Source: a virus
Lineage: Duplodnaviria; Heunggongvirae; Uroviricota; Caudoviricetes
Strand: one strand, 5' to 3'
DNA length: 64,000 bases
Virus record (IMG/VR): IMGVR_UViG_3300027708_003081
Below, in pieces: positions 4,795 through 23,768 of the stretch. The notes beneath the pieces were generated by a model. It was not told the origin of the DNA. It saw only the letters and a list, made by a program, of their open reading frames with translations, and made no database searches. A program made the translations under genes and the position numbers. Position 1 is the first letter of the stretch. The number at the start of each line of letters is the position of its first letter.

Positions 4795-5298
4795 ATGGCA
4801 AGGATAATAAGAATAACAGAAAATGATTTAGTAAAAATTGTTAAAAGAGTAATAAAAGAACAACCTGGTCTTTTTGATGTTGCTTCAGACCCAGCTTTAG
4901 CGGGTGTTATCTTTACTCCAGGAATAGAGAAAGGAGGATGTAAAAAAGAAAATCCTGCAAAAAATAAATTAAGTCAACTTCTTACTTATTGCGGTAAAAT
5001 TCAACCTGATTCAAATACTACTAAAATAAAGGCGTGGAATGACAGATTATACAAGTCTATGAAAGGGAGAGGAACAAATGAAGATTTTATTAAAGTATTA
5101 GATGAAATTAAAACGGTTAATGAATTATCAGCAATTTGGAAAACATTTAAATATGATAATCAAAATCTTTGGCGATGGATGGAAGGTGAGATGAAGTATA
5201 ATTGGGATGACACTTGGAATCGATTAAAAAAATTCCAAACAATTGCTAAAATACCAACTTGTTTAGAATATAATAAAAATACGACAACAAACTCATAA
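4795..5298 (+). CDS. Putative head-internal protein: conserved N-terminal leader plus annexin-like repeat
   Basis: Leader RIIRITENDLVKIVKRVIKEQ; LYKSMKGRGTNEDFIKVL resembles the annexin LxKAMKGxGTDE motif. Confidence 0.55.
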   Translation: MARIIRITENDLVKIVKRVIKEQPGLFDVASDPALAGVIFTPGIEKGGCKKENPAKNKLSQLLTYCGKIQPDSNTTKIKAWNDRLYKSMKGRGTNEDFIKVLDEIKTVNELSAIWKTFKYDNQNLWRWMEGEMKYNWDDTWNRLKKFQTIAKIPTCLEYNKNTTTNS

Positions 5299-5307
5299 TA
5301 TAGTAAG

Positions 5308-5643
5308 ATGAAACTAAAACCATTTGAGAAATTTTTAAAGTATAGTGATTTTGATAAAAAATTCCTCTCAATTTACAAAGAGTTAAGGGAATTATTTCAA
5401 AGATACGAATGGAGTGAAAAAGATTTGGAGAAACCTCCATTTTATACAGAAGAATTGATGAGGTTGCATCACACTATGCAAAATGAAAAATTGACTTTAT
5501 TTAACGACTTAAAATCTTATTTTGATATTACTTGGGAAGAATTTGAAGAATATATGATTCCAAAGTTAAAACAAATAAACGAATTAACACCTTTAAAAGA
5601 TGGCAGTAAAAAGAGAGATGATAGATGGGACGAAGATTATTAA
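5308..5643 (+). CDS. Hypothetical protein
   Basis: 111-aa ORF in tight operon spacing. Confidence 0.6.
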   Translation: MKLKPFEKFLKYSDFDKKFLSIYKELRELFQRYEWSEKDLEKPPFYTEELMRLHHTMQNEKLTLFNDLKSYFDITWEEFEEYMIPKLKQINELTPLKDGSKKRDDRWDEDY

Positions 5644-5842
5644 TGAAATTGAGTCCTCAAACATTAAAAAAACAACATTTGATACAGAGACAAAATCACT
5701 TATTACAGAATTTAATAACGGGTTAGTTTATGAGTATGAAAATGTCCCCCACCAAATCTACACAAAATTTAGAACCGCAGAATCTCAAGGAAAATTTTTT
5801 ATGGCTGAAATAGCAAAAAAATACAAATATAAAAAACTCTAA
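5600..5842 (+). CDS. KTSC-domain protein
   Basis: ESSNI...FD...L..EFNNG.VYEYENVP..IY..F..AESQGKFF pattern. Confidence 0.85.
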   Translation: MAVKREMIDGTKIINEIESSNIKKTTFDTETKSLITEFNNGLVYEYENVPHQIYTKFRTAESQGKFFMAEIAKKYKYKKL

Positions 5843-5863
5843 TTATCCAACTATTTATTATTA

Positions 5864-6604
5864 ATGAAAGATTTTCAAAAAATATTGAATAGTTTTGAAG
5901 TTAGGGATACTCTAAATCCCAAAGTTTGGGAAAATTCCGCAGAACCAAAAAAAGCAAAACTTAAAAATAATATTAGAACAAAATTATTAAAAATTGCTGA
6001 TGAATTTTCTGATGAATTGGGTGAAGATGTATTCATAGTAGATATTCATTTAATGGGTTCATTAGCCAATTTTAATTGGTCGGAATATTCAGATTTTGAC
6101 TTACACCTTTTAGTTGATTTTGAAGGTTTAGATAATCCTGAGCTTTATAAAGAAATGTTTGATTTGAAAAAAGATGCATTTAATGATAAACATGATATAA
6201 AAATTTATGGTTTTGATGTTGAGGTTTACGCCCAAGATGCAAAAGATGAAAAATTTAGTGAAGGTATATATTCTGTAATGTATGATGAGTGGGTTAATGT
6301 TCCGCCAAAAAAACATAAGAATATTGATATGGAATTATTAAAAACCAAAATTAAAACTTGGACATCAAAGATAGATAAGGCTCTTGAAGAAGCCAAAGAG
6401 GGAAATGATGGGAAAAAATTAAAAGACTTAAAAGAAAAGATTAAAGAATATAGACAATCAGGTTTAGAAAAAGAAGGGGAACTTTCTTATGAAAATTTGG
6501 TTTTTAAGTATTTGAGACGTTCAGGGTATATCGGTAGGTTATTTGAACTTAAAACAAAACTTAAAGATAAAGAATTATCTATTGAAAGAAAAACGATAGA
6601 ATAA
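5864..6604 (+). CDS. Pol-beta-superfamily nucleotidyltransferase
   Basis: GS...SDFDLH motif (MGSLANFNWSEYSDFDLH), third acidic residue in DVEVY, helical C-terminal domain. Confidence 0.75.
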   Translation: MKDFQKILNSFEVRDTLNPKVWENSAEPKKAKLKNNIRTKLLKIADEFSDELGEDVFIVDIHLMGSLANFNWSEYSDFDLHLLVDFEGLDNPELYKEMFDLKKDAFNDKHDIKIYGFDVEVYAQDAKDEKFSEGIYSVMYDEWVNVPPKKHKNIDMELLKTKIKTWTSKIDKALEEAKEGNDGKKLKDLKEKIKEYRQSGLEKEGELSYENLVFKYLRRSGYIGRLFELKTKLKDKELSIERKTIE

Positions 6605-6665
6605 AATATTTACTATTTATTGTATATTTATAAAGAAAAATTAAAATAATTTAAAAACTCAAAAT

Positions 6666-7895
6666 ATGGGAGACTTAAAACCGCTCGGAAGTGAAAAATT
6701 GGAAGGGCAAGAAAAAATCAAGAGAATAATTGAACTCTCAAGATATAATGAAAATAGACCATCCAACATCAACGAAACATCTAGGTCAGAATATGGGATT
6801 AGTTTAGCAGATGGAAATAACTATGAAATTGTAAAAGAAAAACAGGGTTATATCATCAAAAAAACAATTTCTGAATCTGCGACTGATTATATTGAACCTA
6901 TGAAAAACAGAAAGTATTATTCTTCGTATTCTCAGGCTCTAAAAAGATTAAATCTTTTAACAAAAGAAGTTAATAGATTGACTGAGAATGAAGAAGGTAC
7001 TTCTTTATTTGGAGAACAAAAAAAGTTTGTTTTAAAAACTCCAAAATCTGCTCCGGCAGGAGATGAACCTATTGCGGAACTTCCTCCACCATCAGAACCA
7101 CCAGCAGTACCAACACCTGAATTACCAGCTTCACCTGATGCAACACCTCCTTCACCTGAAGGGGCTGAAATACCAACAGGAGATATGGAAGGAGGAGATA
7201 TGCCTGATATGGGTGATATGGGAGGCGATGAAGGAATGCCTGATATGGGTGAAAAAGAAGAAGAAGTTACATTCAAATCAATTCAAAAACTTACAGGTAA
7301 ATTAACCCAGAAAATGAGAGAATTTGATAATGAAAAAGGATTAACATCTGAGAATATTAAGTACGTTATTAATATGGTTTTATCTGCCGCTGATTTGAAA
7401 AATTTATCAGAAGAAGATAAGGAAGATATTATTTCAAAATTTGACGAAGAAGAAGGGATGGAAGATATGGGCGGAGAAGAAGAAATACCTGATATTCCTG
7501 ATATGGGCGGAGAAGATACGGGAGGTGAAATGCCTGATATGGGTACAGAACCTGAAGGAGAGATGGGTGAAATGTATCATTCAATAATTGATAGCATTTT
7601 TGGTGAGTCAAAAATTGATAAAGTTATTTCAAAATATTTCCAAGTTTCAGATAAAGAACAAAGAATGATTAAAGAAAGTCAACAAAAAAGAAAATTAGTT
7701 ACTAAATCTGATGCAAAAAGAAAAATGAAAGACGTTATCAAATTAAGTGAAACTATTGAACAAGAACTTGCATCACAAAAATTTTTAGAAGAAAATCGTA
7801 CCTTTGTTTTTGTTGGTAAAACAAATAAGAAAAATTTGGTTTTTGAAAATAAAGATAAACAAATTAAAATTTCACCTGAAGGACTTGTTCTATGA
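6666..7895 (+). CDS. Acidic, Pro/Gly-rich low-complexity protein, probably head-associated
   Basis: 409 aa with MPDMG repeats and a Pro-rich linker; lies upstream of the terminase. Confidence 0.55.
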   Translation: MGDLKPLGSEKLEGQEKIKRIIELSRYNENRPSNINETSRSEYGISLADGNNYEIVKEKQGYIIKKTISESATDYIEPMKNRKYYSSYSQALKRLNLLTKEVNRLTENEEGTSLFGEQKKFVLKTPKSAPAGDEPIAELPPPSEPPAVPTPELPASPDATPPSPEGAEIPTGDMEGGDMPDMGDMGGDEGMPDMGEKEEEVTFKSIQKLTGKLTQKMREFDNEKGLTSENIKYVINMVLSAADLKNLSEEDKEDIISKFDEEEGMEDMGGEEEIPDIPDMGGEDTGGEMPDMGTEPEGEMGEMYHSIIDSIFGESKIDKVISKYFQVSDKEQRMIKESQQKRKLVTKSDAKRKMKDVIKLSETIEQELASQKFLEENRTFVFVGKTNKKNLVFENKDKQIKISPEGLVL

Positions 7896-8287
7896 GTTAT
7901 CTAATTTATGTTAATGGTTTGGGACCAAACTTTAAAGGTGATAACATTTATGAATTTATTTTTTCGGATGAACAAGAAGTTTGGGGAGATGGATGGGATA
8001 GTAAACCTTGTAATGGTTACCCTTTACCACCTGAACTAAAATATATTACAAAAGTAGGAGTTTTGAGGGACACTAACATAAAGTTGGAGTTAATTCAAAA
8101 CTCCGATTATTTTTCGATGATTGATGCTGTTGATGGGGTTGTCGCTTTAGCGTGGGAAGAGGATGATACGGTTAAACAACCGAGAATGGTTTTTAGGTTT
8201 AATGATACAGAACAAAAAATAAAAGATTTATTATACGAAAAGGATTTAATCCTTGAGTTTGAAAAAAAAGTTGTATATGAAAAATAA
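7892..8287 (+). CDS. Hypothetical protein
   Basis: 131-aa ORF with an ATGA overlap to the upstream gene. Confidence 0.65.
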   Translation: MSYLIYVNGLGPNFKGDNIYEFIFSDEQEVWGDGWDSKPCNGYPLPPELKYITKVGVLRDTNIKLELIQNSDYFSMIDAVDGVVALAWEEDDTVKQPRMVFRFNDTEQKIKDLLYEKDLILEFEKKVVYEK

Positions 8288-9050
8288 TATAAAGGCACTT
8301 CAACTGATAAAATCAGGATTATCATCCAAGACTGTTTCAAAGTTAACAGAATCTCAAATTGATGAGTTACATAGTAAAATGATTGGTGAACAAATTACCA
8401 CATTACCATCTCAACCGTCTTATAAAGTTGGAGATAAAGGGGGGACACTACCTGCTAGTGATAAAGGTTACGCAATTAAAAAAAATCCTTTAGATAACTC
8501 CATAACCGCAACAAAAATGGAAGGAGAAATGGAGGAGGGTAAAAATAAAGTTAAAAAATCTGAACCTAATCCTTGGGCAATATGTCACTCTCAAGTTGGA
8601 CCTAAAAAAACAAGAAAATTTGAAAGATGCGTTCAAGCAGTAAAAAAAAGTTTGAAAGAAGGAAAAAATCCTGTATCTTTGTTTTTAGAAAACGAAATTA
8701 TGAGAATAGTAGAAAAACATATACCACCAAGAATCAGTAAAGGTGATTTATTACAATATCTTTCAGAAGATACAACAACCGCACCTACAAAACCGGTGAC
8801 AAAACCTACAACTAGACCAAGACCAATAAGTCCCGGTCAAAATCCAAATCCTGGTGAGAAAGAAGCTCCAAGGGCGAATACAACAACTGCACCAACAAAA
8901 CCAATAACAAAACCTACAACTAGACCAAGACCAATAAGTCCCGGTCAAAATCCAAATCCTGGTGAGAAAGAAGCTCCAAGAGCAATTTCACCTGAAAGAG
9001 CAAAAACTGAAGTAATTAACGCAATAATGAAAATTTTAGACAATGAATAA
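8277..9050 (+). CDS. Hypothetical protein with an NPWAIC..C motif and a duplicated Pro/Thr-rich segment
   Basis: ORF track gives 8253..9050; ATG at 8277 is the more likely start. Confidence 0.6.
   Translation: MKNNIKALQLIKSGLSSKTVSKLTESQIDELHSKMIGEQITTLPSQPSYKVGDKGGTLPASDKGYAIKKNPLDNSITATKMEGEMEEGKNKVKKSEPNPWAICHSQVGPKKTRKFERCVQAVKKSLKEGKNPVSLFLENEIMRIVEKHIPPRISKGDLLQYLSEDTTTAPTKPVTKPTTRPRPISPGQNPNPGEKEAPRANTTTAPTKPITKPTTRPRPISPGQNPNPGEKEAPRAISPERAKTEVINAIMKILDNE
8772..8983 (+). repeat. 108-bp tandem direct repeat, 2 copies, in frame (36 aa)
   Basis: TTTAPTKP(V/I)TKPTTRPRPISPGQNPNPGEKEAPRA twice; copies start at 8772 and 8880. Confidence 0.95.
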
Positions 9051-10383
9051 AAAAAGAATAAAAGAACAGATTGATTACGGCGGTAGACCTGAAAGAATGG
9101 ACCCAAATTTGGAAAGAAAATTGGGTGACCCCGAAAGTTTATACGCTAAAAATCCGGCTTTAAAAGGTGGAGTACAAGACGTACAAAAACTTGTTTCATC
9201 AAGATTTGGAAAAGTTGTTGATAAACTAAAAGAAGTTACAGGTATTCAAGATTTAAGTGCTGGACAAGTTAAGCAAATGCTTATGGGTGAAATGATGAGA
9301 AAAGCCCAAGAAGTTATGAATTTAGAATCAAGAGTAAAAGAACCTCTTAAAGATTTGGCTGTTGAAATTTGTTTAGATGAAACTGAAGCTGACCCAAGTT
9401 GGTATATTATTGACCCTCGTTTAGGGGAACAAATCGACGTTTCAAATTTTAGATACTCTCCCGAAGAACCAAAAGATGATGATGAAGAGGATGAAGAAGA
9501 AGGCGATAAAAAACCAAAGTTAGAAATACCATCTTTTGATATTGAAGATTTAACACCTGAAGAAGAATTTGAGTTAGAAAAACACAAAAGAAATATTATA
9601 AACGCACTTATTCAAGGTGCCGCAAAAAAAGGACACTACGTATTTCAAAAACCTGAAGTTAAAAGAAGATTAGACGCAATCAATCCAAGATTATATCCTA
9701 ATTATTTAACAATAATGGCTATTAATGATTTCTTCTATTTTAGTATGGAACAAATGATTGAAATGATGTCTGAAACAGGACAAGGTGTTGCCGGTAAAGT
9801 AGAATTAGACGAACCTGACGAGGAAGATTTAGATAATTTTGAAGAACAAGGTGGAGATAGAGAAGAGGCACCCGATACAAAAATTGTTGCTACAGGAGCA
9901 TTTTTCCCAATCTTATGTCACGAAATTATTAAAGGAATTGAAGCGTCTAAAGGTAGGCACGGATTACCAAAAGAACCAAGTATGAGAGCAAATGTGATGG
10001 GACAAACTGATACTTTGGCAAATGAGCCGATGCAATTGAGAATTGGACCTGAAATTTATGAAAAATTAAGATTTACATTACCTGATGAAATGTTTGATGA
10101 AGACAATAAAGGTTTAATAAATTGGTTCCATATTCAACTTTACCAAATTCCAGCTCAAGAGTTTTTGCAGATAATGGGTGATGTAATTTCAACTGATGAG
10201 AAAAAAAATAAGAAAGCAACCTCAAGATTTGAAGAAATTATGCGTGAAGCTCAAGATTTAAAATCTGAATATGATAATTGGAAAAAAGAAGAAAAAGGTG
10301 AAGAACCTTCTAATGATGGTGAAGATGACGACGATGATTTGGATGATTTTTTAAGTGGTTTAGGTATATCGATGCCAAAATAA
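9043..10383 (+). CDS. Hypothetical acidic protein (446 aa) preceding the terminase
   Basis: Long ORF with D/E tracts; no recognised catalytic motif. Confidence 0.65.
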   Translation: MNKKRIKEQIDYGGRPERMDPNLERKLGDPESLYAKNPALKGGVQDVQKLVSSRFGKVVDKLKEVTGIQDLSAGQVKQMLMGEMMRKAQEVMNLESRVKEPLKDLAVEICLDETEADPSWYIIDPRLGEQIDVSNFRYSPEEPKDDDEEDEEEGDKKPKLEIPSFDIEDLTPEEEFELEKHKRNIINALIQGAAKKGHYVFQKPEVKRRLDAINPRLYPNYLTIMAINDFFYFSMEQMIEMMSETGQGVAGKVELDEPDEEDLDNFEEQGGDREEAPDTKIVATGAFFPILCHEIIKGIEASKGRHGLPKEPSMRANVMGQTDTLANEPMQLRIGPEIYEKLRFTLPDEMFDEDNKGLINWFHIQLYQIPAQEFLQIMGDVISTDEKKNKKATSRFEEIMREAQDLKSEYDNWKKEEKGEEPSNDGEDDDDDLDDFLSGLGISMPK

Positions 10384-10400
10384 AATAACATAATAATATT

Positions 10401-12214: not shown

Positions 12215-12252
12215 GTATTTATAATATTGATTACTTCAATTAAATTTATTAT

Positions 12253-14109
12253 ATGGCTGAAAATAACAATTTAACGGTATGGCAGAGGCTCGGTAAGACA
12301 TTCGGACCCAATTCTTTGCTAGGACAAGACTACCCCCAATTTAAACTTGATAAAACAGAATTATTAAGAACTAAAGATAAGGGAGAATACGAAAGAGAAA
12401 AACTACAGGCTCAACAAACATTTTATTTAGCACAACAGTGGGCTAAAGTAGAGAATAATTTATACTCTCAAGCAATTTATTACGAACCAACAAGATTATC
12501 TTCTGTTTATGATTATGAATCTATGGAGTACACTCCCGAAATTTCCGCAGCGTTAGACATATATGCAGAAGAATCTACAACAGTTAATGAAGATGGATTT
12601 ATGTTACAGATTTATTCCGAATCAAAAAGGATTAAGTCTGTATTGGCGGATTTGTTTAATAATGTTTTAGATATTAATACAAACTTACCGATGTGGACAA
12701 GAAATACTTGTAAATTTGGTGATAATTTTGTTTACTTAAAATTAGACCCTGAAAAGGGTGTTGTTGGTTGCCAACAGTTACCTAATATTGAAATTGAAAG
12801 ACACGAAGTTGGTATGGGTGATAAACACCCTGTAGATTTAGGTAAGACTGAAGCTAAAAAGGCGTTAACTTTTACTTGGAAACAAAAAGCAATTACATTC
12901 CAATCTTGGGAAATTGCTCACTTTAGATTATTAGGTGACGATAGAAAACTTCCTTATGGTACTTCTATGTTGGAAAAGGCTAGAAGAATTTGGAAACAAT
13001 TATTATTATCTGAAGATGCGATGTTAATTTATCGTACCTCAAGAGCACCTGAAAGAAGAATTTTTAAAGTGTTTGTTGGTAATATGAATGATGAAGATGT
13101 TGAACCTTACGTAAACCGTGTTGCCGATAAGTTTAAAAGACAACAAGTGGTGGATAAAAATACAGGTAATGTGGATATGAGATTTAATCAAATGGCGGTT
13201 GACCAAGATTATTTTGTACCTGTTCGTGACCCAGCCTCACCGAGTCCAATTGAGACATTACCGGGAGCAACAAACCTATCAGAAATTGCGGATATCGAAT
13301 ATATCCAAAAGAAATTATTAACGGCTCTTCGTGTTCCTAAAGCATTTTTGGGTTTTGAGGAAGTTGTAGGTGACGGTAAAAATTTATCATTACAGGATAT
13401 TCGTTTTGCAAGAACAATCAATAGAATTCAAAAAAGTATGATTCAAGAGTTAAATAAAGTTGCAATTGTGCATTTATTTTTACTTGGATTTGAAGATGAA
13501 TTATCAAATTTCACTTTAGGTTTAACTAACCCGTCTACTCAGGCGGACTTGCTTAAAATTGATGTTTATAAAGAAAAAATTCTTTTATATAAAGATTTGG
13601 TTTCAGACCCAGGAAATGGTATTCAAGCAGTTTCTTCCACTTGGGCTAAAAAACATATTTTTGGTTTTTCAGATGAAGAAATTAGAGTTGATTTATTACA
13701 ACAAAGATTTGAGAAGGCAGTGGGAGAAGAACTTAAATCAACAGCAACAGTTATTACTAAAACAGGTTTATTTGATACTATCGATAAGCTTTATGGTAAC
13801 AACGCAAGTGGTGGAACATCTACTGCAGGTGCTGAACCTGCGGGTGAAGAAACTTCAGCACCACCTGATTTAGGGGGAGGGGGAGCTCCACCACCTGAAG
13901 GAGGCGATTTAGGGGCACCGCCACCACCTCCACCAGGAGGAGAAGCACCACCTGAAGGAGGGGGAATAACTCCTGAATCAAGAAAGAATAACTTAAATAT
14001 TTTAGTTGAAAAAAGGTTTATAGAGGGTTCGGTAATACTAGATGTTGAAACCGGTATAGATTCACTTAATGAAATGGATATAGAATTAGATAAGTTATTA
14101 AATTCGTAA
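12253..14109 (+). CDS. Portal protein (T4 gp20-like) with a Pro/Gly-rich C-terminal tail
   Basis: EDAMLIYRTSRAPERRIFKV, IETLPG.NL, DIEYIQKKL..AL.VP, DIRFARTI. Confidence 0.92.
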   Translation: MAENNNLTVWQRLGKTFGPNSLLGQDYPQFKLDKTELLRTKDKGEYEREKLQAQQTFYLAQQWAKVENNLYSQAIYYEPTRLSSVYDYESMEYTPEISAALDIYAEESTTVNEDGFMLQIYSESKRIKSVLADLFNNVLDINTNLPMWTRNTCKFGDNFVYLKLDPEKGVVGCQQLPNIEIERHEVGMGDKHPVDLGKTEAKKALTFTWKQKAITFQSWEIAHFRLLGDDRKLPYGTSMLEKARRIWKQLLLSEDAMLIYRTSRAPERRIFKVFVGNMNDEDVEPYVNRVADKFKRQQVVDKNTGNVDMRFNQMAVDQDYFVPVRDPASPSPIETLPGATNLSEIADIEYIQKKLLTALRVPKAFLGFEEVVGDGKNLSLQDIRFARTINRIQKSMIQELNKVAIVHLFLLGFEDELSNFTLGLTNPSTQADLLKIDVYKEKILLYKDLVSDPGNGIQAVSSTWAKKHIFGFSDEEIRVDLLQQRFEKAVGEELKSTATVITKTGLFDTIDKLYGNNASGGTSTAGAEPAGEETSAPPDLGGGGAPPPEGGDLGAPPPPPPGGEAPPEGGGITPESRKNNLNILVEKRFIEGSVILDVETGIDSLNEMDIELDKLLNS

Positions 14110-15007: not shown

Positions 15008-15030
15008 ATTACCTAATATATATTAAAAAA

Positions 15031-15062: not shown

Positions 15063-15093
15063 TAAAAAATAAACAAATTAATTATGGAACTTA

Positions 15094-15522: not shown

Positions 15523-15557
15523 CTCATTATTTGCAATATTTATCTTAAAAGAAATAA

Positions 15558-16271
15558 ATGAAAGAATTAAGACTTTTAGAAGCAAACGAGTTAGGATTTG
15601 GTATTCTTGTTGAAATGGATGCGGGATACATATCACCAAGAGATAGTTTTAACGAAAAATTTTTACAAGAACAAAAACTTATGGATTATAGAAATCCATT
15701 TGAATTTTATGCCGTTCTACAAAAATACAACACACCAAATAGAAATGGTAGATTTTATCCTGAACCAATCTTAAAAAGAGAGGCAGATAAGTATAAAACA
15801 ACTATTCAAAAAGGTTTATCAACTTCAGAATTAAATCATCCAGAATCGTCTTTAATTGATTTGGATAGAGTGTCTCATTTGATTACCGATATTTGGTGGG
15901 ATAAGAATATCTTAATGGGTAAATTAAAACTATTAACATCACCAGGATTTCACGAAAGAGGTATAGTATCAACTAAAGGAGATATTGCGGCCAATCTTAT
16001 GAGACAAGGTGTTACTCTTGGTATATCATCAAGGGGTGTTGGTTCACTTAAAAAAGTTGGTGAAAGAAATGAAGTTCAAGATGATTTTGAATTGATTTGT
16101 TTTGATTTAGTTTCATCTCCATCTACACCAGGTGCTTATTTATTCTCTGATAAAAATGATAGAGAAAAGTATGAGGAGAATTTGGAAGAAGAAAAAAAAT
16201 TAAAATCTGGCGGAGATGTTGACCACTCTATTGATTTAATGAGAAAATTATCCGATTATTTAGGAAAATAA
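15558..16271 (+). CDS. Prohead core protease (T4 gp21-like)
   Basis: NRNGRFYP, ELNHP (catalytic His), GISSRGVGS (catalytic Ser), FDLVSSPSTPGAY. Confidence 0.93.
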   Translation: MKELRLLEANELGFGILVEMDAGYISPRDSFNEKFLQEQKLMDYRNPFEFYAVLQKYNTPNRNGRFYPEPILKREADKYKTTIQKGLSTSELNHPESSLIDLDRVSHLITDIWWDKNILMGKLKLLTSPGFHERGIVSTKGDIAANLMRQGVTLGISSRGVGSLKKVGERNEVQDDFELICFDLVSSPSTPGAYLFSDKNDREKYEENLEEEKKLKSGGDVDHSIDLMRKLSDYLGK

Positions 16272-16277
16272 ATAATT

Positions 16278-16496
16278 ATGGAAATGGATGAAAAGTATTT
16301 TGTAGCAAAAATTCAGTACGATTTACCTGATGACCAAACAGGTAAAATTAAAAAAATTAGAGAAGAAAAATTGGTAAAAGGGTTCTCAGTAACCGATGTT
16401 GAAGCTAAAGTAACAAAAAGATACGAAGGTTTCTCAAACGATTGGAGAATAACTTCAGTTTCAGAAAGTAAAATTGATGAAGTTATTGAAGACTAA
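16278..16496 (+). CDS. Small protein resembling Bacteroidota DUF4494
   Basis: YFVAKIQY...GKIKKIREEKLVKGFSVTDVEAKV parallels the F.CK..Y...G..KKV.E.YLV.A.SFTEAE pattern as recalled. Confidence 0.5.
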   Translation: MEMDEKYFVAKIQYDLPDDQTGKIKKIREEKLVKGFSVTDVEAKVTKRYEGFSNDWRITSVSESKIDEVIED

Positions 16497-16513
16497 ATTT
16501 ATTAGGTTTATTT

Positions 16514-16541
16514 AAAAGGTGAGTATTAACTCACCTTTTTT
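16514..16541 (+). terminator. Intrinsic terminator
   Basis: AAAAGGTGAGT-ATTA-ACTCACCTTTTTT. Confidence 0.8.
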
Positions 16542-16665
16542 GTTTTTATACACTATTTATTACTACGGAAGTCCTTTCCCATAAAAAAATAATCACTCAC
16601 AACTGAAAAAATTAAACTTTTTTCATTTTTGATACTATTTATTAGTTAAAATAAATAAATTTTCT

Positions 16666-18144
16666 ATGCAAGAAAACAAAAACTTAGTTGAAGAGGCACT
16701 TATTCAAATGAAAAATGTTGAAGAAGCTATAGCCGAAAATGCAAAAGGAATACTTGCTTCTACAATGAAGGAAGAAATCAATCAATTAGTAAAAGAATCC
16801 CTTTCTGAGCAAGATGACGAAGAAGAGGACGTTGTTGGCGCAGATGTTGATACAGACACAGATACTGACGTAGATGTAGATGTTGATACTGATAACGACG
16901 ATGAAGTTGATATGGACGTAGATACTGACACCGATATGGATGACGTAGATATGGACGTAAATATGGATTCTGATGAAACTCCAATTGATTTAACCGGTGC
17001 GTCTGATGAAGAAATCCTTAAAGTTTTTAAAGCTATGGGTGAAGAAGACGGAATTATTATCAAAAAAGATGGTTCTGATGTAACCCTTAAAGATAATAAC
17101 ACAGATTCTGAATATCTTATCAGATTAGGAGAATCAGTTGAGGAAGAATACGAAAACGAAATGTACGAAACAGAAATGGACGACACAGAAACTGACGACA
17201 TCATCGCACAAATTTTTGGTAACGAAGAAATGGAAGAAGATGTTATGTATGAAATCCAAATGGACGAAGAAATGGACGAAGAAATGGAAGAAGAAATGGA
17301 AGAAGAAATGGATGAATCTGAAATGGAAGAAACAATCTATGAAATCTCTATGGACGAAGAAATGGACGAAGAAATGGACGAAGAATTCACGGAATCTCGT
17401 CATCATGAAGATGATGAAGAAGAAGATGAATCTTGGCAAATGGATGAAGCATACAGTCACAAGAAAGCAAAAAAAGGTATGAAACCTAAAGGACTCGGAA
17501 TCGGTAAACCTAAATTCCAATACAAGAAAACTTCTGGCGGTTTTAAAGAAGACAAGAAAGAAGGACCAAAATCTGTTGGAACAGGTAAACCAAAATTTGA
17601 GTACAAAAAAGGTGAAAACATGGGCGGTAAAAACCAAATGGTTAAGAAAACCGAAACTAAAGAAGCTGCTAGAACGATGGGTATGGGCCCAAGAAAAGGC
17701 GGTGGACTTAGAAAAGGAATCACACCTAATAGAAACCTTAAAGAGGAAACTCTATCACAAGAAGTTGGTATGTTGAGAGAAAAAAATGAAGAATACAGAA
17801 AAGCTCTGAATACGTTCAGAGAAAAGTTAAATGAAGTTGCAATTTTCAACTCAAATTTAGCTTACGCTACAAGATTGTTCACAGAACACTCAACTACTAA
17901 GAAAGAAAAAATAAACATCCTCAGAAGATTCGACGATGTTGAGACTTTAAAAGAATCTAAAAATCTTTATAAGTCAATCAAAGACGAATTAGGAAAGGTT
18001 GAAAGTAAACCAATGAACGAATCAGTTGAAACTAAATTAAATAAAAATGTTTCTACAGGTTCTTCAACAACACTTATTGAATCAAAAACTTACGAAAATC
18101 CTCAATTTTTGAGAATCAAAGATTTGATGGGTAAGATGTTGTAA
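16666..18144 (+). CDS. Prohead core scaffold protein (T4 gp22-like)
   Basis: Position between protease and capsid genes; highly acidic low-complexity middle; coiled-coil C-terminus. Confidence 0.75.
   Translation: MQENKNLVEEALIQMKNVEEAIAENAKGILASTMKEEINQLVKESLSEQDDEEEDVVGADVDTDTDTDVDVDVDTDNDDEVDMDVDTDTDMDDVDMDVNMDSDETPIDLTGASDEEILKVFKAMGEEDGIIIKKDGSDVTLKDNNTDSEYLIRLGESVEEEYENEMYETEMDDTETDDIIAQIFGNEEMEEDVMYEIQMDEEMDEEMEEEMEEEMDESEMEETIYEISMDEEMDEEMDEEFTESRHHEDDEEEDESWQMDEAYSHKKAKKGMKPKGLGIGKPKFQYKKTSGGFKEDKKEGPKSVGTGKPKFEYKKGENMGGKNQMVKKTETKEAARTMGMGPRKGGGLRKGITPNRNLKEETLSQEVGMLREKNEEYRKALNTFREKLNEVAIFNSNLAYATRLFTEHSTTKKEKINILRRFDDVETLKESKNLYKSIKDELGKVESKPMNESVETKLNKNVSTGSSTTLIESKTYENPQFLRIKDLMGKML
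17261..17385 (+). repeat. 12-bp tandem microrepeats (GAAGAAATGGAC/A) encoding EEMD/EEME
   Basis: Two clusters, each following a YEI.MD motif in the scaffold gene. Confidence 0.8.
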
Positions 18145-18181
18145 ACAATAATAATAAACTAAAAACAAAAAACCAATAAAA

Positions 18182-19990
18182 ATGGGAGCATTATTAGAAT
18201 CAGGTCTCGTTGGTAACATCGGTCTTAAGCACCTTAAAGTTATCAAAGAAGATACTATTAGCAAATGGGACAAATTAGGGTTCCTTGAAGGTCTTAAAGG
18301 CCACCTAAAAGAAAATGTTGCACAGTTATATGAAAACCAAGCATCATTCTTGATAAACGAAGCATCATCAACATCTGATACAGGTGCATTTGAAACAGTT
18401 GTTTTCCCAATCGTACGTAGAGTATTCTCTAAGTTGTTGGCGAATGATATCGTTTCTGTACAAGCTATGAACTTACCAATTGGTAAATTGTTCTACTTTG
18501 TACCTAACATTCAGTCTTACGAAAGTGGAGACGGTATTGTAGGTGGTACACATTATTCACCTTATGGAGCACCAGGCGCAACTCAAGGTGTAAATGCAGG
18601 TTTTGATTTTAACACTGACAAGAGTTTGTATGACAGATTCTATGAAGGTAATGAACCAGCATTAGACCCTCCAGGTTTATTTGATTACTCAAAAGGACAA
18701 TTTTCTGCCGTTAGTGCTAGTGCGACTACTGTTTTATGGACAAATGGACAAATGTTACCAGGTGCATATACAATCGCAGCACAACCTGCTGAAGGTTATA
18801 GAAAAGCAATTGTTGTTTTATCAGGTTTCACAAATAACGGAGCGGGTAAATTAATTGGTCCTGATGGTCAAGTAATGGATAATGAAGCTTTCTTGTCTGA
18901 TTTGACAGTTAAATCTGTTAGTACAGGTGCTTTCTCAGGAACAGGTACGGGTAATTTATTATTCAGATTAGTAACTCAGAAATACGGTAGAGGTATTGTT
19001 CAATATGGTAATATTAATGCGACTACTTCATTCCCTTCAACAGGTAATGGTGGTACATACGATAACCTTTGTGATGCTGATGGTAAAATCTATATTGAAG
19101 TTGATTTACAAACACCTTGTACTGTAAATTCAAATTCACTTGATGGATATTCTGGTAGAACCATTACAGTTGATGGTACTGCAGCAGTAAACAGTCAATT
19201 TAGTGCAACTTACAGAGTTTACAAAACAATGGAGTTTGAAGATAAAATTGGTGAAGTTTCTTTTGACCTTCAATCTGTTACAGTTTCTGTTACTGAAAGA
19301 AAATTAAGAGCTCAATGGTCACCTGAAATGGCTCAAGACGTTGCAGCATTCCACAACATTGACGCTGAAGCTGAATTAACGGCTTTATTGTCTGAACAAG
19401 TTGCGGCTGAAATCGACCGTGAAATCCTTCGTGATTTACGTAAAGGTGCAGCTTGGAACTTACGTTGGGATTACAACGGTTGGAAGAGATTAGGAAGTCA
19501 AGCAGTTCCATACACTCAAAAAGATTGGAACCAAACTTTGATTACCGCAATCAACCAAATTTCTGCACAAATTCATAAGTCTACCTTAAGAGGTGGTGCT
19601 AACTGGATTGTTGTTTCTTCTGAAATCAGTGCAATTTTTGATGATTTGGAATATTTCCACGTATCAAACGCAGCTCCTGAGCAAGACCAATACAACATGG
19701 GTATTGAAAGAGTAGGTACTTTGGCTGGTCGTTACCAAGTTTATCGTGACCCTTACTTCCCAGCTAACCAAGTGTTGATGGGACACAAAGGAACGTCATT
19801 GTTAGATACAGGTTACATCTACGCACCGTACGTACCTCTACAATTAACTCCAACTATGTACAATCCGTTCAATTTTACTCCAATTAAGGGTATTATGACG
19901 AGATACGCGAAAAAAATGGTAAATAACAGGTTTTACGGAAGAATTACTGTAGATGGTGTTAGAACATTTGATTTGAAAGAATTGAGATAA
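18182..19990 (+). CDS. Major capsid protein (T4 gp23-like)
   Basis: IVRRVF..L.ANDIVSVQAM..P.G..FY, RKLRAQWSPEMAQD, IDAEAEL...EIDREI, YAPYVPL, F.P..GIMTRYA. Confidence 0.96.
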   Translation: MGALLESGLVGNIGLKHLKVIKEDTISKWDKLGFLEGLKGHLKENVAQLYENQASFLINEASSTSDTGAFETVVFPIVRRVFSKLLANDIVSVQAMNLPIGKLFYFVPNIQSYESGDGIVGGTHYSPYGAPGATQGVNAGFDFNTDKSLYDRFYEGNEPALDPPGLFDYSKGQFSAVSASATTVLWTNGQMLPGAYTIAAQPAEGYRKAIVVLSGFTNNGAGKLIGPDGQVMDNEAFLSDLTVKSVSTGAFSGTGTGNLLFRLVTQKYGRGIVQYGNINATTSFPSTGNGGTYDNLCDADGKIYIEVDLQTPCTVNSNSLDGYSGRTITVDGTAAVNSQFSATYRVYKTMEFEDKIGEVSFDLQSVTVSVTERKLRAQWSPEMAQDVAAFHNIDAEAELTALLSEQVAAEIDREILRDLRKGAAWNLRWDYNGWKRLGSQAVPYTQKDWNQTLITAINQISAQIHKSTLRGGANWIVVSSEISAIFDDLEYFHVSNAAPEQDQYNMGIERVGTLAGRYQVYRDPYFPANQVLMGHKGTSLLDTGYIYAPYVPLQLTPTMYNPFNFTPIKGIMTRYAKKMVNNRFYGRITVDGVRTFDLKELR

Positions 19991-20042: not shown

Positions 20043-20094
20043 ATTAAAAATAATAATAGTTGATTTTTTGGACAAATTTATTATATTTATTATT

Positions 20095-20784
20095 ATGAGA
20101 AAGATAATATTAACAAAAGAACAAGTTGACGAAATTTTAAGATTGTATAATGATGAATTATTAGGTTCTCCGGCAATAAGTGAAAAACTAAAAATACACA
20201 AAACAATCGTATTAAATGCTTTAAGAGAAAATGGTGTTAAATTAGGTCCATCAGGTAGACGTTTTATTGGTGGTAGAACGGTTGCTATGAAGAAATACGA
20301 ATCAAAACCGGAAACAAAAGAGAGAAAAAAGAAAAATTATTATGAGTGGTACGAACAAAATAAAGACCACAGAAAAAAATATATGGATGAATACCGAGAA
20401 AATAACATCGATAAAATCCGAGAGGTTAAACGTAACTATGAAAGAAACCGGAAAGCGAACGACCCCCTCTATAAACTAGTTGCTAATTTTAGGACTGCGA
20501 TATATACCGTATTAAAAGAAAATAATATGAATAAATACGGACATTATTTTGAAATTTTACAGTATAGTCCTGAGGAACTTGCAATACACTTGGAAAATCA
20601 GTTTACAGAAGATATGACGTGGGAAAATTACGGGGAATGGCACGTTGACCATAGATTACCTATCACATCATTTAACTTCCAAGAAATCGGAGATAATGAA
20701 TTTATGAGGTGTTGGAGTTTGGATAATCTTCAACCGATGTGGGCGGACGAAAATATTAGAAAATCTAATAATATTTTAGTATAA
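20095..20784 (+). CDS. HNH-type endonuclease with a helical N-terminal region (probable homing endonuclease)
   Basis: WHVDHRLP...CWSLDNLQPMWADENIRKSN; ATG at 20095 preferred over TTG at 20068. Confidence 0.75.
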   Translation: MRKIILTKEQVDEILRLYNDELLGSPAISEKLKIHKTIVLNALRENGVKLGPSGRRFIGGRTVAMKKYESKPETKERKKKNYYEWYEQNKDHRKKYMDEYRENNIDKIREVKRNYERNRKANDPLYKLVANFRTAIYTVLKENNMNKYGHYFEILQYSPEELAIHLENQFTEDMTWENYGEWHVDHRLPITSFNFQEIGDNEFMRCWSLDNLQPMWADENIRKSNNILV

Positions 20785-21076: not shown

Positions 21077-21763
21077 ATGAATAAAAAACAATTAAAAGAA
21101 TCAACGGGTTCGGGAAGTTCGGGAAGTTTTAAAACACCGATAAACTTTGCACCACTTGATTGGGGTAAAGAACCATTAGAACCTTTTAACATAAGGGTGT
21201 CTGACTATTTAAATCCAACTTTAGCTTACGATAGTTATGATGGTTCTTTAGATATTTCAAAAGAAAAGGCGGACAAAATAGAAAGACTTACAAAAAAGCT
21301 TTCAAGAAAGGCGTCAGAAGCATTTGGACAAAATGATGATGATGGAAATCCATTAAATGGTTTTATTCCTATGGGAGATACTACATCAGGGACGCCTGGC
21401 AAAGAATCTGATTTGGTTAAAGAAGATTTGGGTGTTTGGTTTGGAACAAAAAAGAAACCAAAAGGTAGTAGTCAACCAAAAGGTCCTTGGGTTAATATTT
21501 GTCGTAAAAAAGAAGGCGGTGGACATCCTCCTTGTGGTAGACCGGACGCATCAGATAAGGGGTACCCTAAATGTAGAGCGGCGGGAGTTGCATCCAAAAT
21601 GACGGATTCTCAAAAAAGAAGTGCGTGTCAACAAAAAAGAAAGGCTGAAAAATCACATTCAAAATCAGGTACGGGAAACAAACCAAAAATGACTCATTAC
21701 AAGCCAAAAAATGAATCTACAAGAGATTTAATTAGAAAAATATTAAGAGAAAATTTTAACTAA
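21077..21763 (+). CDS. Basic Cys-containing protein (WF...WVNIC...PCGR...YPKC motif)
   Basis: Basic C-terminal domain with 4 Cys; TATTTAT upstream. Confidence 0.6.
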   Translation: MNKKQLKESTGSGSSGSFKTPINFAPLDWGKEPLEPFNIRVSDYLNPTLAYDSYDGSLDISKEKADKIERLTKKLSRKASEAFGQNDDDGNPLNGFIPMGDTTSGTPGKESDLVKEDLGVWFGTKKKPKGSSQPKGPWVNICRKKEGGGHPPCGRPDASDKGYPKCRAAGVASKMTDSQKRSACQQKRKAEKSHSKSGTGNKPKMTHYKPKNESTRDLIRKILRENFN

Positions 21764-22223: not shown

Positions 22224-22649
22224 ATGAAAAAAGTACAAAACGGAAACACAGTAAGTGTAAATTACACAGGAAAATTTGAAGATGGACAAATTTTTGATAC
22301 TTCCTTAATTGAAGGAAGAGAACCTATTAAAGCGACTATTGGTGAAAAACAAGTAATTCCAGGATTTGAAAATGGACTTCTTGAAATGGAGATTGGAGAA
22401 AAGAAAACAATCGAAATTGAGGCGGTAGATGCTTATGGTGATTATAAAGAAGAAATGATATTCGATGTTCCAAAAGGTCAATTCCCTGAAGGAGTTAAAA
22501 CAGGTGATATTCTAAATGCTCAAAGCGCTATGGGACCTGTAAACGTAACAGTAGTTGAAGTTATGGAGGATATGATTAAGATTGATGCTAATCATCCTTT
22601 GGCAGGTAAAAAACTCATATTTGATTTGGAAGTGATGGATATTCAGTAA
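22224..22649 (+). CDS. FKBP-type peptidyl-prolyl isomerase (SlyD-like, no His-rich tail)
   Basis: VSVNYTGK.EDG.IFDTS, VIPGFENGL, AYG, IDANHPLAGKKLIFDLEV. Confidence 0.93.
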   Translation: MKKVQNGNTVSVNYTGKFEDGQIFDTSLIEGREPIKATIGEKQVIPGFENGLLEMEIGEKKTIEIEAVDAYGDYKEEMIFDVPKGQFPEGVKTGDILNAQSAMGPVNVTVVEVMEDMIKIDANHPLAGKKLIFDLEVMDIQ

Positions 22650-22656
22650 AAAATTT

Positions 22657-22681
22657 AACCCCTCTTTTGGAGGGGTTTTTT
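22657..22681. terminator. Intrinsic terminator between convergent genes
   Basis: AACCCCTC-TTTTG-GAGGGGTT followed by Ts. Confidence 0.75.
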
Positions 22682-22686
22682 ATTTC

Positions 22687-23154
22687 TTAACAATAAGGTG
22701 GAGAACATCTTTTTTTACCATCTGAACCAGGCATTTTACCTTTACATACTTGAACCGCGTAACCGTTCGCATATGCCGAGGGGTAAACCTTAAATTTAGA
22801 TTTTGCTGCGGATTTACCACGAGCACATAATTTAGTTCCTGATTTTTTACGTCCTTCTGACATCATATCCATTTCATCGTGAGGTATATTCTCTTCACGT
22901 TTTGTTTCATTCATCATAAAGTCAAATACTTGGTCGACATTCTCTTTTGCAGATGAGATATGGTCATCAGCCCAATCGTGCCCATTCATTAAAATCTCGT
23001 CCACCGTACGGGGGTCTAATTCCAATAATAATTCACATTGTCTTTTCATTTGTTCCAAATTACTGAAAAACATATAATTTGGTGATTCTTGTTCCTTAAG
23101 AACTTTTTTAACGAGACGATTTATGTCTGTTTCTGTTAATTTAATTGTTTTCAT
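22687..23154 (-). CDS. Putative head-internal protein: conserved leader plus basic Cys-rich C-domain (KFKVYPSAYA)
   Basis: Leader MKTIKLTETDINRLVKKVLKEQ; C-terminal LCARGK...KFKVYPSAYANGYAVQVCKG. Confidence 0.6.
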   Translation of the reverse strand: MKTIKLTETDINRLVKKVLKEQESPNYMFFSNLEQMKRQCELLLELDPRTVDEILMNGHDWADDHISSAKENVDQVFDFMMNETKREENIPHDEMDMMSEGRKKSGTKLCARGKSAAKSKFKVYPSAYANGYAVQVCKGKMPGSDGKKRCSPPYC

Positions 23155-23156
23155 AA

Positions 23157-23768
23157 TTATTGAATTTTATATCCTGTACTAGCAGTGTTTACGAATTTAT
23201 CTAATCCACCAAGATTATTTTTAAATAGATTAATAACATCAAGAGGTGTTATTTTTTGTTTATTAGGGAAATGGTGTTTATAAAAAGGAAAATATATATC
23301 TGCGCCTATAAACTTTGACATATCTTCAGGATTTTTAAAATTACCTGATGTGTCAAAATATTTTGTATATTCTGTATTAGAATTTTTTCTATTAAATCTA
23401 TCAGCATCTCTCCAAGCCGCAGTATAATAATCCATTTTATTTTTTTTACTTGGTGGTTGAACTTCATCAGGTAACGAAGCTCTATCATTTTTATATGATG
23501 TCATAATTAAATCTTTATCATTATCATCGTAAGATAAGAAATTACTAATTTCCGCAAAATTTGAACCACCACTAATTGTGTCTTCGTATGTACCATCTCC
23601 ACTTCCTGAATCATCAGTACCTAAACGAGAACCTATTTTTTTTATTCCATCGCCAGTCATTGTTGATGACGTTCCATGACATCCATATCCACCCTTAGAA
23701 CATCTTTGTTCTTTAATAGTTTGTCGTATTAAACTAATAAGTTCCGACTCAGTTAATCTTACTTTCAT
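23157..23768 (-). CDS. Putative head-internal protein with the conserved leader
   Basis: Leader MKVRLTESELISLIRQTIKEQ. Confidence 0.6.
   Translation of the reverse strand: MKVRLTESELISLIRQTIKEQRCSKGGYGCHGTSSTMTGDGIKKIGSRLGTDDSGSGDGTYEDTISGGSNFAEISNFLSYDDNDKDLIMTSYKNDRASLPDEVQPPSKKNKMDYYTAAWRDADRFNRKNSNTEYTKYFDTSGNFKNPEDMSKFIGADIYFPFYKHHFPNKQKITPLDVINLFKNNLGGLDKFVNTASTGYKIQ

What the first reader, a model, noticed from the sequence alone, without database searches (positions are those of the whole stretch)
4795..23768. Shared N-terminal leader on unrelated proteins: candidate capsid-targeting and protease-release signal
Seen: three proteins with unrelated bodies start with the same ~21-aa amphipathic motif: RIIRITENDLVKIVKRVIKEQ (4795), KTIKLTETDINRLVKKVLKEQ (22687-23154) and KVRLTESELISLIRQTIKEQ (23157-23768). 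Related segments occur in the scaffold (EEINQLVKESLSEQ), in 8277 (KLTESQIDELHSKMIGEQ), at the C-terminus of 21077 (ESTRDLIRKILRE), and as short N-termini (MNKKRIKEQ, MNKKQLKES). Established: T4 gp21-type proteases cleave after (L/I)-x-E, and T4 internal proteins carry a cleaved capsid-targeting peptide. Inference: this is a portable, scaffold-mimicking helix that loads diverse cargo into the prohead and is cut at (I/L)KE/Q, giving a modular protein packaging/injection system.
Basis: partly seen in the sequence, partly recalled or inferred. Interest (0 to 1): 0.8.

Follow-up and report, generated by a model that had tools for sequence, protein, structure and literature searches.

The report
Shared capsid-address tag on phage proteins
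A giant T4-like water phage puts the same 22-residue helical tag, ending in the cutting motif of its own head protease, in front of many unrelated small proteins. The tag most likely loads them into the capsid for delivery into the host, as T4 does with a shorter tag, and it marks thousands of such proteins in metagenomes.

Summary
The core observation is real. Three genes (4795+, 23154-, 23768-) start with the leader, consensus MKKIIRLTESDLTRIVKRVIKEQ, and a fourth (8277+) carries it from residue 18. They score 31-44 bits on a leader profile, against at most 11 bits in shuffled controls.

The window is the head module of a distant T4-like jumbo phage: gp20 portal, S77/gp21 protease with the conserved catalytic motifs, an acidic scaffold, and a gp23 capsid protein with a conserved LINE|A site aligned to T4's LTE|A.

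The leader is widespread and virus-specific:
- 4-16 copies in each related 246-321 kb genome.
- At least 87 unrelated bodies among the sampled loci.
- 6,682 protein clusters in 1.84 billion proteins, almost always starting at residue 2.
- No genuine copy found in a scan of 596 Gb of cellular genomes.

Among copies not forced by my search pattern, [ILV]-x-E at the leader's end is kept in 50 of 51, while P2 and P1' vary. Conservation stops there, and AlphaFold places a disordered linker after it.

Best reading (about 0.6): a T4-CTS-like capsid-targeting propeptide removed by the prohead protease. Packaging and cleavage are inferred, not shown. Scaffold mimicry is unsupported. First-stage notes had flagged similar leaders in other genomes.

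The parts
4795..4860 (+). Leader (M1-E22, MARIIRITENDLVKIVKRVIKE) of gene 4795-5298. Putative cuts after E9 (ITE) and E22 (IKE).
   Evidence: HMM 44.1 bits. AF2 gives helix 9-22, then a linker at 23-46 with pLDDT below 50. E9, E22 and Q23 are invariant in 10 homologues.
4861..5298 (+). Cargo of gene 4795: a linker plus a confidently folded helical domain (residues about 47-162), weakly annexin-like.
   Evidence: AF2 pLDDT 82-93 over residues 51-160. Foldseek finds only weak annexin rows, best overall E 0.9. No Pfam or PHROG hit.
8328..8390 (+). Internal leader copy (KTVSKLTESQIDELHSKMIGE, residues 18-38) in gene 8277-9050. The same protein also holds a basic Cys module and two proline-rich repeats.
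   Evidence: HMM 33.1 and 30.9 bits. LTE and I-G-E are retained.
23092..23154 (-). Leader (M1-E21, MKTIKLTETDINRLVKKVLKE) of gene 22687-23154.
   Evidence: HMM 43.0 bits. AF2 helix 8-21 is the best-predicted segment, with a break at 22-28. Conserved in a 17-member family.
22855..22866 (-). Second junction in gene 22687-23154: M-M-S-E100 | G-R-K-K. It lies between the YMFFSNLEQ domain and the C-terminal basic Cys-rich PSAYANG module.
   Evidence: E100, K103 and K104 are invariant and P3 is I/L/M in 17 of 17 family members, inside an otherwise hypervariable linker.
23709..23768 (-). Leader (M1-E20, MKVRLTESELISLIRQTIKE) of gene 23157-23768.
   Evidence: HMM 34.2 bits. An 86% identical orthologue exists in an IMG/VR contig.
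23770..23967 (-). First gene of the three-gene operon 23967->23768->23154, with TATTTAT at -23.
   Evidence: The genes are 1-2 nt apart.
15558..16271 (+). Prohead serine protease, T4 gp21 type (Peptidase_S77): the proposed enzyme that removes the leader.
   Evidence: PF03420 4.9e-21 and phrog_207 6.8e-43. The ELNHP, SSRG and D-x-V motifs align with T4 gp21.
16666..18144 (+). Acidic scaffold-like protein (net charge -73): a candidate docking partner for the basic leader.
   Evidence: Its position between protease and capsid protein matches T4 gene order. Charge. No sequence similarity to the leader.
18182..18361 (+). Propeptide of the major capsid protein (residues 1-60), ending L-I-N-E|A. It contains six [LIVMF]-x-E motifs, including V-I-K-E.
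   Evidence: Aligned to T4 gp23 FLTE|AEIG. Conserved in 5 relatives. Motif density is 6 per 60 residues here against 5 per 543 in the mature part.
18362..19990 (+). Mature major capsid protein (gp23 family).
   Evidence: PF07068 2.8e-72.
12253..14109 (+). Portal protein (T4 gp20 family).
   Evidence: PF07230 7.9e-75.

Best explanation
The leader is a capsid-targeting propeptide of the T4 CTS kind, in a longer and far more widely used form.

Anatomy. It has a short basic N-terminal stretch (M-K-K-I-I-R). Then comes an invariant L-T-E, which also caps the helix. A 13-14 residue basic amphipathic helix follows and ends in [I/L/V]-x-E.

Proposed mechanism (inferred). During prohead assembly the helix docks the attached protein onto the assembling core, probably on the very acidic scaffold or core proteins. 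Once the shell closes, the gp21-type serine protease cuts after the terminal Glu (I-K-E|Q) and possibly also after L-T-E. The small leader fragments leave the head. The mature cargo, starting at about residue 23, stays with the DNA and is ejected into the host cell envelope or cytoplasm at infection.

Because targeting resides in the tag alone, any gene that acquires it becomes cargo. That would explain the many unrelated bodies, the tandem arrays of tagged genes, and the fused 'tag-cargo-tag-cargo' ORFs.

What is shown: the tag, its position, its conservation pattern, its distribution and its co-occurrence with the protease. What is inferred: docking, packaging, cleavage and ejection.
For: 1. 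T4-type head machinery. The window has a gp20 portal, an S77 protease and a gp23 capsid protein. The protease motifs align with T4 gp21, and the capsid protein's I-N-E|A aligns with T4 gp23's L-T-E|A. [LIVMF]-x-E is about ten-fold enriched in the capsid propeptide, and the site is conserved in 5 relatives.

2. Position. The distance from Met to the Leu of LTE is 6 residues in 114 of 166 unique copies. Most of the 150 best database hits begin at residue 2.

3. Portability. 139 N-terminally tagged proteins fall into 87 BLAST-unrelated body clusters. 6,682 clusters at 50% identity reach E<=1e-3 in 1.84 billion proteins. There are 4-16 copies per related genome.

4. Cleavage-site-like conservation. 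Among 51 variants not matching my search pattern, P3 is I/L/V in 51 of 51 and P1 is Glu in 48 of 51, with [ILVM]-x-E kept in 50 of 51. P2 takes 11 different residues and P1' takes 13. Conservation ends right after it.

5. Protein-level selection. All synonymous codons are used at the invariant L, T and E positions.

6. Modular structure. AF2 gives helix 9-22, then a low-confidence linker at 23-46, then a confident domain.

7. A further invariant [ILM]-x-E|G-(R/K)-K-K sits at a domain junction inside a hypervariable linker of the 22687 family.

8. Co-occurrence. S77 is present in 14 of 15 large leader-bearing contigs. No genuine N-terminal copy was found in 596 Gb of cellular genomes.

9. Co-regulation hint. 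TATTTAT lies upstream of the terminase, portal, protease and scaffold genes, and also of 4795 and of the 23967 operon.

10. Charge complementarity. The leader is +4 and amphipathic (muH 0.75); the scaffold is -73.

11. Precedent. T4 IPII and IPIII share an identical MKTYQEFIAE|A leader. T-even internal proteins are diverse with only the CTS conserved (PMC3012670). T4 Alt is cut at ITE-6 and LTE-619 (PMC5694885).

12. Some cargos carry LysM, PG_binding_1 or OmpA domains and begin with this charged leader where a secretion signal would sit. This fits delivery to the envelope through the virion.
Against: - There is no direct evidence of packaging or cleavage. No cultured phage in the INPHARED collection was found to carry the leader, so no virion proteome can be consulted.
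- All carriers examined belong to one lineage (capsid protein 70-82% identical). Co-occurrence with S77 may therefore reflect common descent only.
- The leader is longer and much more conserved than a cleavage site plus a T4-like CTS would need. T7 and D10 fit a helix N-capping box, so the 'second site' L-T-E may be structural.
- Gln at P1' is preferred (20 of 51 unbiased variants). I could not confirm whether gp21-type enzymes accept it.
- Internal and C-terminal copies exist. After a cut behind Glu, these would leave the tag attached to the upstream fragment.
- Both AF2 models give the helix only moderate confidence (pLDDT 59-70).
- There is no sequence similarity to the scaffold or to the T4 CTS.
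Confidence: 0.6

Rival explanations
1. An uncleaved virion-docking helix. The tag anchors diverse small domains to some other virion site, such as the capsid exterior as decoration or adhesin, the neck, the baseplate or the tail. It stays on the mature protein.
For: Some cargos carry wall- or membrane-binding domains (LysM, PG_binding_1, OmpA, annexin-like), which would make sense on a virion surface. The tag works at internal and C-terminal positions. Its strong conservation fits a fixed protein-protein interface. It shares a putative late promoter motif with structural genes.
Against: This reading does not explain why the only near-invariant feature at the tag-body boundary is [ILV]-x-E with free P2 and P1'. 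It does not explain why a further invariant [ILM]-x-E sits at another domain junction, or why conservation stops exactly there before a disordered linker.
Confidence: 0.13
2. A non-virion functional helix: a generic basic amphipathic helix used inside the infected cell. It could act in membrane binding, nucleic-acid binding or oligomerisation, as an adaptor or degron for the phage's own ClpC/ClpP, or as a timing signal.
For: The tag is amphipathic and net +4. First-stage notes report ClpC and ClpP in this genome (not checked here), and 4 of 5 relatives have ClpP. Most cargos have unknown function.
Against: G004 is 96% complete, has 9 tagged genes and has no ClpP, whereas S77 is present in all five relatives. 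The tag was not found in cellular genomes or in other T4-like or huge phages. Cargos with peptidoglycan-binding domains need a route out of the cytoplasm. Tagged genes flank the head module, and one heads from the same upstream motif as head genes.
Confidence: 0.12
3. Not a functional peptide. The shared 5' ends are a DNA- or RNA-level element (translation-initiation or recombination cassette), or simply the conserved N-terminus of one diverged paralogous family.
For: The tag is always at gene starts, and tagged genes occur in tandem arrays. Such arrays could arise by duplication.
Against: All six Leu codons, all four Thr codons and both Glu codons are used at the invariant positions, so selection acts on the peptide. 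Bodies fall into 87 clusters with no BLAST similarity and different Pfam domains. In-frame internal copies keep the peptide.
Confidence: 0.03

Closest known systems
Capsid targeting sequence (CTS) of phage T4 internal proteins IPI/IPII/IPIII, Alt and gp24 (Mullaney & Black 1996; reviewed in PMC3012670 and PMC5694885)
   Same: An N-terminal leader directly after Met, shared by otherwise unrelated and fast-evolving proteins. It ends in [L/I]-x-E, the phage encodes a gp21/S77 prohead protease, and the head gene order is T4-like. T4 IPII and IPIII share the identical leader MKTYQEFIAE|A.
   Different: - Length is 22 residues against 10-20, with two [IL]-x-E motifs.
- There is no sequence similarity to the T4 CTS.
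- It is a basic amphipathic helix.
- There are 4-16 tagged genes per genome, against about 4-5 tagged proteins (the IPs and Alt) in T4 (from the literature).
- Thousands of cargo families carry it in metagenomes.
- It also occurs internally and repeated in polyprotein-like ORFs.
- Function is untested here.
Long N-terminal propeptides of ejection and inner-body proteins in phiKZ-like giant phages (phiKZ, 201phi2-1, SPN3US; PMC5694885, PMC10052503)
   Same: Many head-internal proteins in jumbo phages are cut after Glu by a gp21-related protease. Paralogues have conserved N-termini that are thought to target them to the prohead.
   Different: In those phages the protease family is S80 and the motif is (A/S/G)-x-E. 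The propeptides are often longer than 100 residues and are not one shared sequence. Here P3 is I/L/V and one short tag is reused.
T4 prohead core proteins gp22, gp67 and gp68, which are processed into small internal peptides
   Same: Acidic core proteins are cut at many L/I-x-E sites. The window's tagged and neighbouring ORFs (22687, 8277, 21077) are chains of small modules with [ILMV]-x-E at the junctions, one of them invariant.
   Different: The modules here are basic, Cys-containing domains shared with pelagiphages and cyanopodoviruses, not scaffold fragments. Their processing is inferred.

Membership tests
T4-type capsid targeting sequence / gp21-removed propeptide | Located at the extreme N-terminus of the precursor | tested here: met
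   The Met-to-LTE distance is 6 residues in 114 of 166 unique copies, and 13 of 166 are clearly internal. Most of the 150 top database hits start at residue 2.
T4-type capsid targeting sequence / gp21-removed propeptide | Same leader on otherwise unrelated proteins | tested here: met
   87 BLAST-unrelated body clusters among 139 proteins, with different Pfam domains.
T4-type capsid targeting sequence / gp21-removed propeptide | Ends in the gp21 cleavage consensus (L/I)-x-E | tested here: met
   [ILVM]-x-E is kept in 50 of 51 variants not forced by the search pattern, while P2 and P1' are variable.
T4-type capsid targeting sequence / gp21-removed propeptide | Genome encodes a gp21-family (S77) prohead protease with catalytic His/Ser/Asp | tested here: met
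   PF03420 at 4.9e-21. The motifs align with T4 gp21. Present in 14 of 15 large carrier contigs.
T4-type capsid targeting sequence / gp21-removed propeptide | Length 10-20 residues and sequence related to T4 MKTYQEFIAE | tested here: not met
   The leader is 22 residues. Beyond M-K at the start and I-x-E at the end it has no similarity to the T4 leaders read.
T4-type capsid targeting sequence / gp21-removed propeptide | Leader is necessary and sufficient for incorporation into the prohead core | not testable with these tools
   This needs a reporter-packaging experiment. No cultured carrier was found.
T4-type capsid targeting sequence / gp21-removed propeptide | Leader removed by the prohead protease in vivo | not testable with these tools
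   This needs N-terminal sequencing or mass spectrometry. No proteome is available.
phiKZ/SPN3US-type propeptides (S80 protease) | Cleavage motif (A/S/G)-x-E and an S80 protease | tested here: not met
   P3 is I/L/V in 51 of 51 variants. The protease matches S77.
Sec/Tat/lipoprotein signal peptide | Uncharged hydrophobic core of about 10 or more residues after a basic n-region | tested here: not met
   Charged residues occur every 2-4 positions (E9, D11, R14, K17, R18, K21, E22). Mean hydrophobicity of the helix is -0.33.

The most novel reading that the evidence does not exclude
One 22-residue, doubly cleavable address tag defines the whole packaged and injected protein repertoire of a globally distributed, uncultured lineage of T4-like jumbo phages of aquatic Bacteroidota. 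It would mark more than 6,000 cargo families, nearly all of unknown function. New effectors would be recruited simply by acquiring the tag, including as tag-cargo-tag-cargo polyproteins. The tag would then be both a computational key to a very large reservoir of host-takeover and anti-defence proteins and a portable packaging signal.
Probability: 0.45. Interest if true: 0.8.

Novelty: new variant of a known kind. Interest (0 to 1): 0.65.

Why it matters
If the tag is a packaging and cleavage signal, a single short profile lists the proteins that these abundant but uncultured jumbo phages carry in their heads and deliver with their DNA. T4's internal proteins include defences against host restriction (PMC3012670), so this class of protein is of direct interest.

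The scale is the notable point. T4 is known for a handful of CTS-bearing proteins. Here there are 4-16 per genome and thousands of families overall, almost all without annotation.

It also gives a concrete, cheap experimental handle: protease plus tag-reporter fusions. And it would provide a natural example of modular cargo recruitment, of the kind already exploited in T4 protein-packaging work.

Tried and rejected
- tblastn of the 23-residue consensus against cultured phages found nothing. A query this short is uninformative, so I searched five related or huge phage records with the profile instead. All were negative.
- Searching 8.4 million papers for the motif strings gave only false word matches. 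A topic search found no description of the tag.
- ESM Atlas on the leader alone returned only unnamed viral clusters at chance-level scores.
I therefore could not count leaders in the window's own genome.
- A DNA-level element is rejected on codon usage.
- A Clp degron is weakened by the ClpP-less relative that has 9 tagged genes.
- Enrichment of [LIM]-x-E immediately upstream of internal copies was seen by eye in roughly a fifth of cases. I did not test this against a background, so I make no claim.
- Foldseek on the 4795 model found no significant match, only recurrent weak annexin rows.
- The AF2 model of the 22687 family was low confidence overall (pLDDT 52.6). I used it only for the helix boundary.


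Full report
**What the window is.** ORFs 10451-19990 form a T4-type head module:
- large terminase;
- gp20-family portal (PF07230, 7.9e-75);
- Peptidase_S77/gp21-type prohead protease (PF03420, 4.9e-21);
- a 492-residue, extremely acidic scaffold-like protein (net charge -73);
- gp23-family major capsid protein (PF07068, 2.8e-72).

The nearest cultured phages are distant. Flavobacterium phage immuto has 38% capsid-protein identity and Microcystis phage Mel-JY01 has 42%. Five IMG/VR genomes of 246-321 kb have capsid proteins 70-82% identical to the window's, so this is a jumbo T4-like lineage. No whole genome is held for the window.

**Is the protease T4-like in specificity?** Aligned with T4 gp21, which I read from NC_000866, the window protease keeps the ELNHP, SSRG and D-x-V motifs that I take to hold the catalytic His, Ser and Asp. 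The capsid protein's N-terminus aligns with T4 gp23 so that T4's maturation site FLTE|AEIG falls on FLINE|ASS at residue 60. This site is conserved in all five relatives. [LIVMF]-x-E occurs 6 times in the 60-residue propeptide and 5 times in the 543-residue mature part. T4-like (L/I)-x-E specificity is therefore a reasonable inference, not a demonstration.

**The observation.**
- Genes 4795(+), 23154(-) and 23768(-) begin with the quoted motif.
- A degenerate DNA pattern for it hits the window three times and hits 100 shuffles zero times.
- A 24-position profile scores four places at 33-44 bits: the three N-termini plus an internal copy at residues 18-39 of gene 8277. The next window hit is 7 bits. 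Shuffled window proteomes reach 3.8-11.3 bits.
These are the scaffold EEINQLVKESLSEQ, the 21077 C-terminus, MNKKRIKEQ and MNKKQLKES.

**Distribution.**
- Translation gives the consensus M-K-K-I-I-R-L-T-E-S-D-L-T-R-I-V-K-R-V-I-K-E-Q. The Met lies exactly 6 residues before the Leu of LTE in 114 of 166 unique copies.
- Scores over 1.19 Mb of fetched DNA are bimodal: 196 hits at 20 bits or more and very few between 8 and 20.
- Related complete genomes carry 4-16 copies each, partly in tandem arrays.
- The bodies of 139 N-terminally tagged proteins fall into 87 clusters with no BLAST similarity. Pfam recognises only LysM, PG_binding_1, OmpA, annexin and GNAT in single cases.
- A profile search of 1.84 billion representatives (50% identity clusters) found 6,682 proteins at E<=1e-3. 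The match begins at residue 2 in most of the 150 best hits.
- The same DNA pattern over 596 Gb of bacterial and archaeal genomes gave 75 hits. None had the Met-Lys-Lys N-terminal context and only 4 scored 20 bits or more, which fits chance.
- Immuto, Mel-JY01, RM378 and two huge uncultured phages have no copy.
- S77 is present in 14 of 15 large carrier contigs. The exception is a 60%-complete fragment.

**Where selection acts.**
- At the invariant Leu, Thr and Glu positions all synonymous codons are used (six, four and two), so the peptide is under selection and not the DNA.
- My search pattern fixed T-E and K-E-Q, so I analysed separately the 51 unique copies that the profile found but that fail the pattern. 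P3 is I/L/V in 51 of 51 and P1 is Glu in 48 of 51. The three exceptions have a shifted or one-residue-inserted site, and [ILVM]-x-E is kept in 50 of 51. P2 takes 11 different residues and P1' takes 13.
- The N-terminal L-T-E is also nearly invariant: E in 51 of 51 and T in 45 of 51.
- After position 22 come 3-4 polar or acidic residues, and then conservation disappears.
- In the ten homologues of the 4795 protein, E9, E22 and Q23 are invariant. One member with a four-residue deletion in the helix still keeps I-K-E and L-S-E.

**Structure.**
- AF2 of the 4795 family gives helix 9-22, a linker at 23-46 with pLDDT below 50, and then a confident helical domain (pLDDT 82-93).
- The 22687 family model is poor overall, but it also puts a helix at 8-21, its best-predicted segment, followed by a break.
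- The consensus helix is amphipathic (muH 0.75) and the leader is net +4.
- T7 and D10 fit a helix N-capping box. This is an alternative reason for the conservation of L-T-E.

**More junctions.** In the 17-member family of the 22687 protein, a hypervariable acidic linker ends in an invariant Glu with I/L/M at P3 in 17 of 17 members. It is followed by G-(R/K)-K-K and a basic Cys-rich module. That module occurs as a stand-alone 56-residue gene between the scaffold and capsid genes of Prochlorococcus podovirus P-SCSP2, and also in pelagiphages.

Metagenomic proteins with two or three leader copies are common: 52 of the 150 best hits. Long ORFs carry the leader after 70-260 residues of other small modules. 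These look like fusions or polyproteins with the leader as a repeated unit.

**Expression context.** TATTTAT lies 11-37 nt upstream of the terminase, portal, 14133, protease and scaffold genes. It also lies upstream of gene 4795 (-20) and of the first gene of the 23967->23768->23154 operon (-23). I did not test this motif against chance, so it is only a hint of co-expression.

**Comparison with what is known.**
- T4 IPII and IPIII start with the identical leader MKTYQEFIAE|A.
- T-even internal proteins are described as highly diverse, with only the capsid targeting sequence conserved (PMC3012670).
- T4 propeptides are 10-20 residues, and Alt is cut at ITE-6 and LTE-619 (PMC5694885).
- phiKZ-like phages use long, non-uniform propeptides and an (A/S/G)-x-E motif (PMC5694885).

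The element here works like a T4 CTS on every feature I could test. It is a different sequence, is longer, has two candidate sites, and is used on a far larger scale. I found no paper describing it.

**Verdict.**
- The capsid-targeting and protease-release reading is the best-supported one (about 0.6). It rests on comparative evidence only.
- An uncleaved docking helix (0.13) and a non-virion helix (0.12) are not excluded. A DNA-level or paralogy explanation is largely excluded (0.03).
- First-stage notes of this scan had flagged similar leaders in this genome and in other genomes. I treated them as leads only.

Noticed in passing
window 22687-23154 (-), residues 97-155: The family has an invariant [ILM]-x-E|G-(R/K)-K-K junction before a basic, Cys-rich 'YPSAYANG' module. 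The same module is a stand-alone 56-residue gene between the scaffold and capsid genes in Prochlorococcus podovirus P-SCSP2, and it occurs in pelagiphages HTVC023P and HTVC106P.
   Followed up: partly
window 4795-5298 (+), residues about 47-162: The cargo domain folds confidently in AF2 (pLDDT 82-93). Foldseek gives no significant match, but annexin chains recur among the weak rows (about 70-76 aligned columns, rmsd 3.3-3.9 A, 22-32% identity). It may contain a single annexin-like repeat.
   Followed up: partly
window 8277-9050 (+): Besides the internal leader, this protein holds a basic 'NPWAICHSQVG...' Cys module preceded by M-E-E|G-K-N-K. It also has two near-identical proline-rich repeats of about 38 residues (TTTAPTKP.TKPTTRPRPISPGQNPNPGEKEAPRA).
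   Followed up: no
window 21077-21763 (+) and 9043-10383 (+): Both proteins start MNKK-x-[LI]-K-E, a possible short T4-length leader that is not detectable with the long-leader profile. 21077 also has L-V-K-E|D-L-G-V-W-F before a Cys-rich basic module (phrog_23735).
   Followed up: partly
window 16666-18144 (+): The scaffold-like protein is extraordinarily acidic (28% D+E, net -73), with D-T/D-V and E-E-M repeat tracts. 6666-7895 (net -27) and 9043-10383 (net -40) are also strongly acidic.
   Followed up: partly
window 20068-20784 (+): An HNH / endonuclease VII-like gene (phrog_1035) sits directly after the major capsid gene. T4 likewise has a homing endonuclease (segD) after gene 23.
   Followed up: no
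window 60001-64000: GC content jumps to 0.446 with GC skew +0.33, against 0.25-0.35 in the rest of the window.
   Followed up: no
P0001-P0150 (metagenomic proteins); L045, L067, L043, L065: Many proteins carry two or three leader copies, N-terminal plus internal or C-terminal. Some long ORFs combine a variant N-terminal helix (for example MKKVKKIQLKESELIDLIEKLVKEN) with a canonical internal leader and small conserved modules (GNAF..AL..AKK.G..F.V.GKEY; KKGALHKALGIP).
   Followed up: partly
L144 (LR756502.1, 642 kb uncultured phage) 1237-1704: The YMFFSNL...GHGWA.DHI domain of the 22687 family occurs there without this leader. It sits behind a different N-terminal module (…HPGSLRRSL…) and an M-K-E|S junction, so the same cargo appears with a different front end in another lineage.
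   Followed up: no
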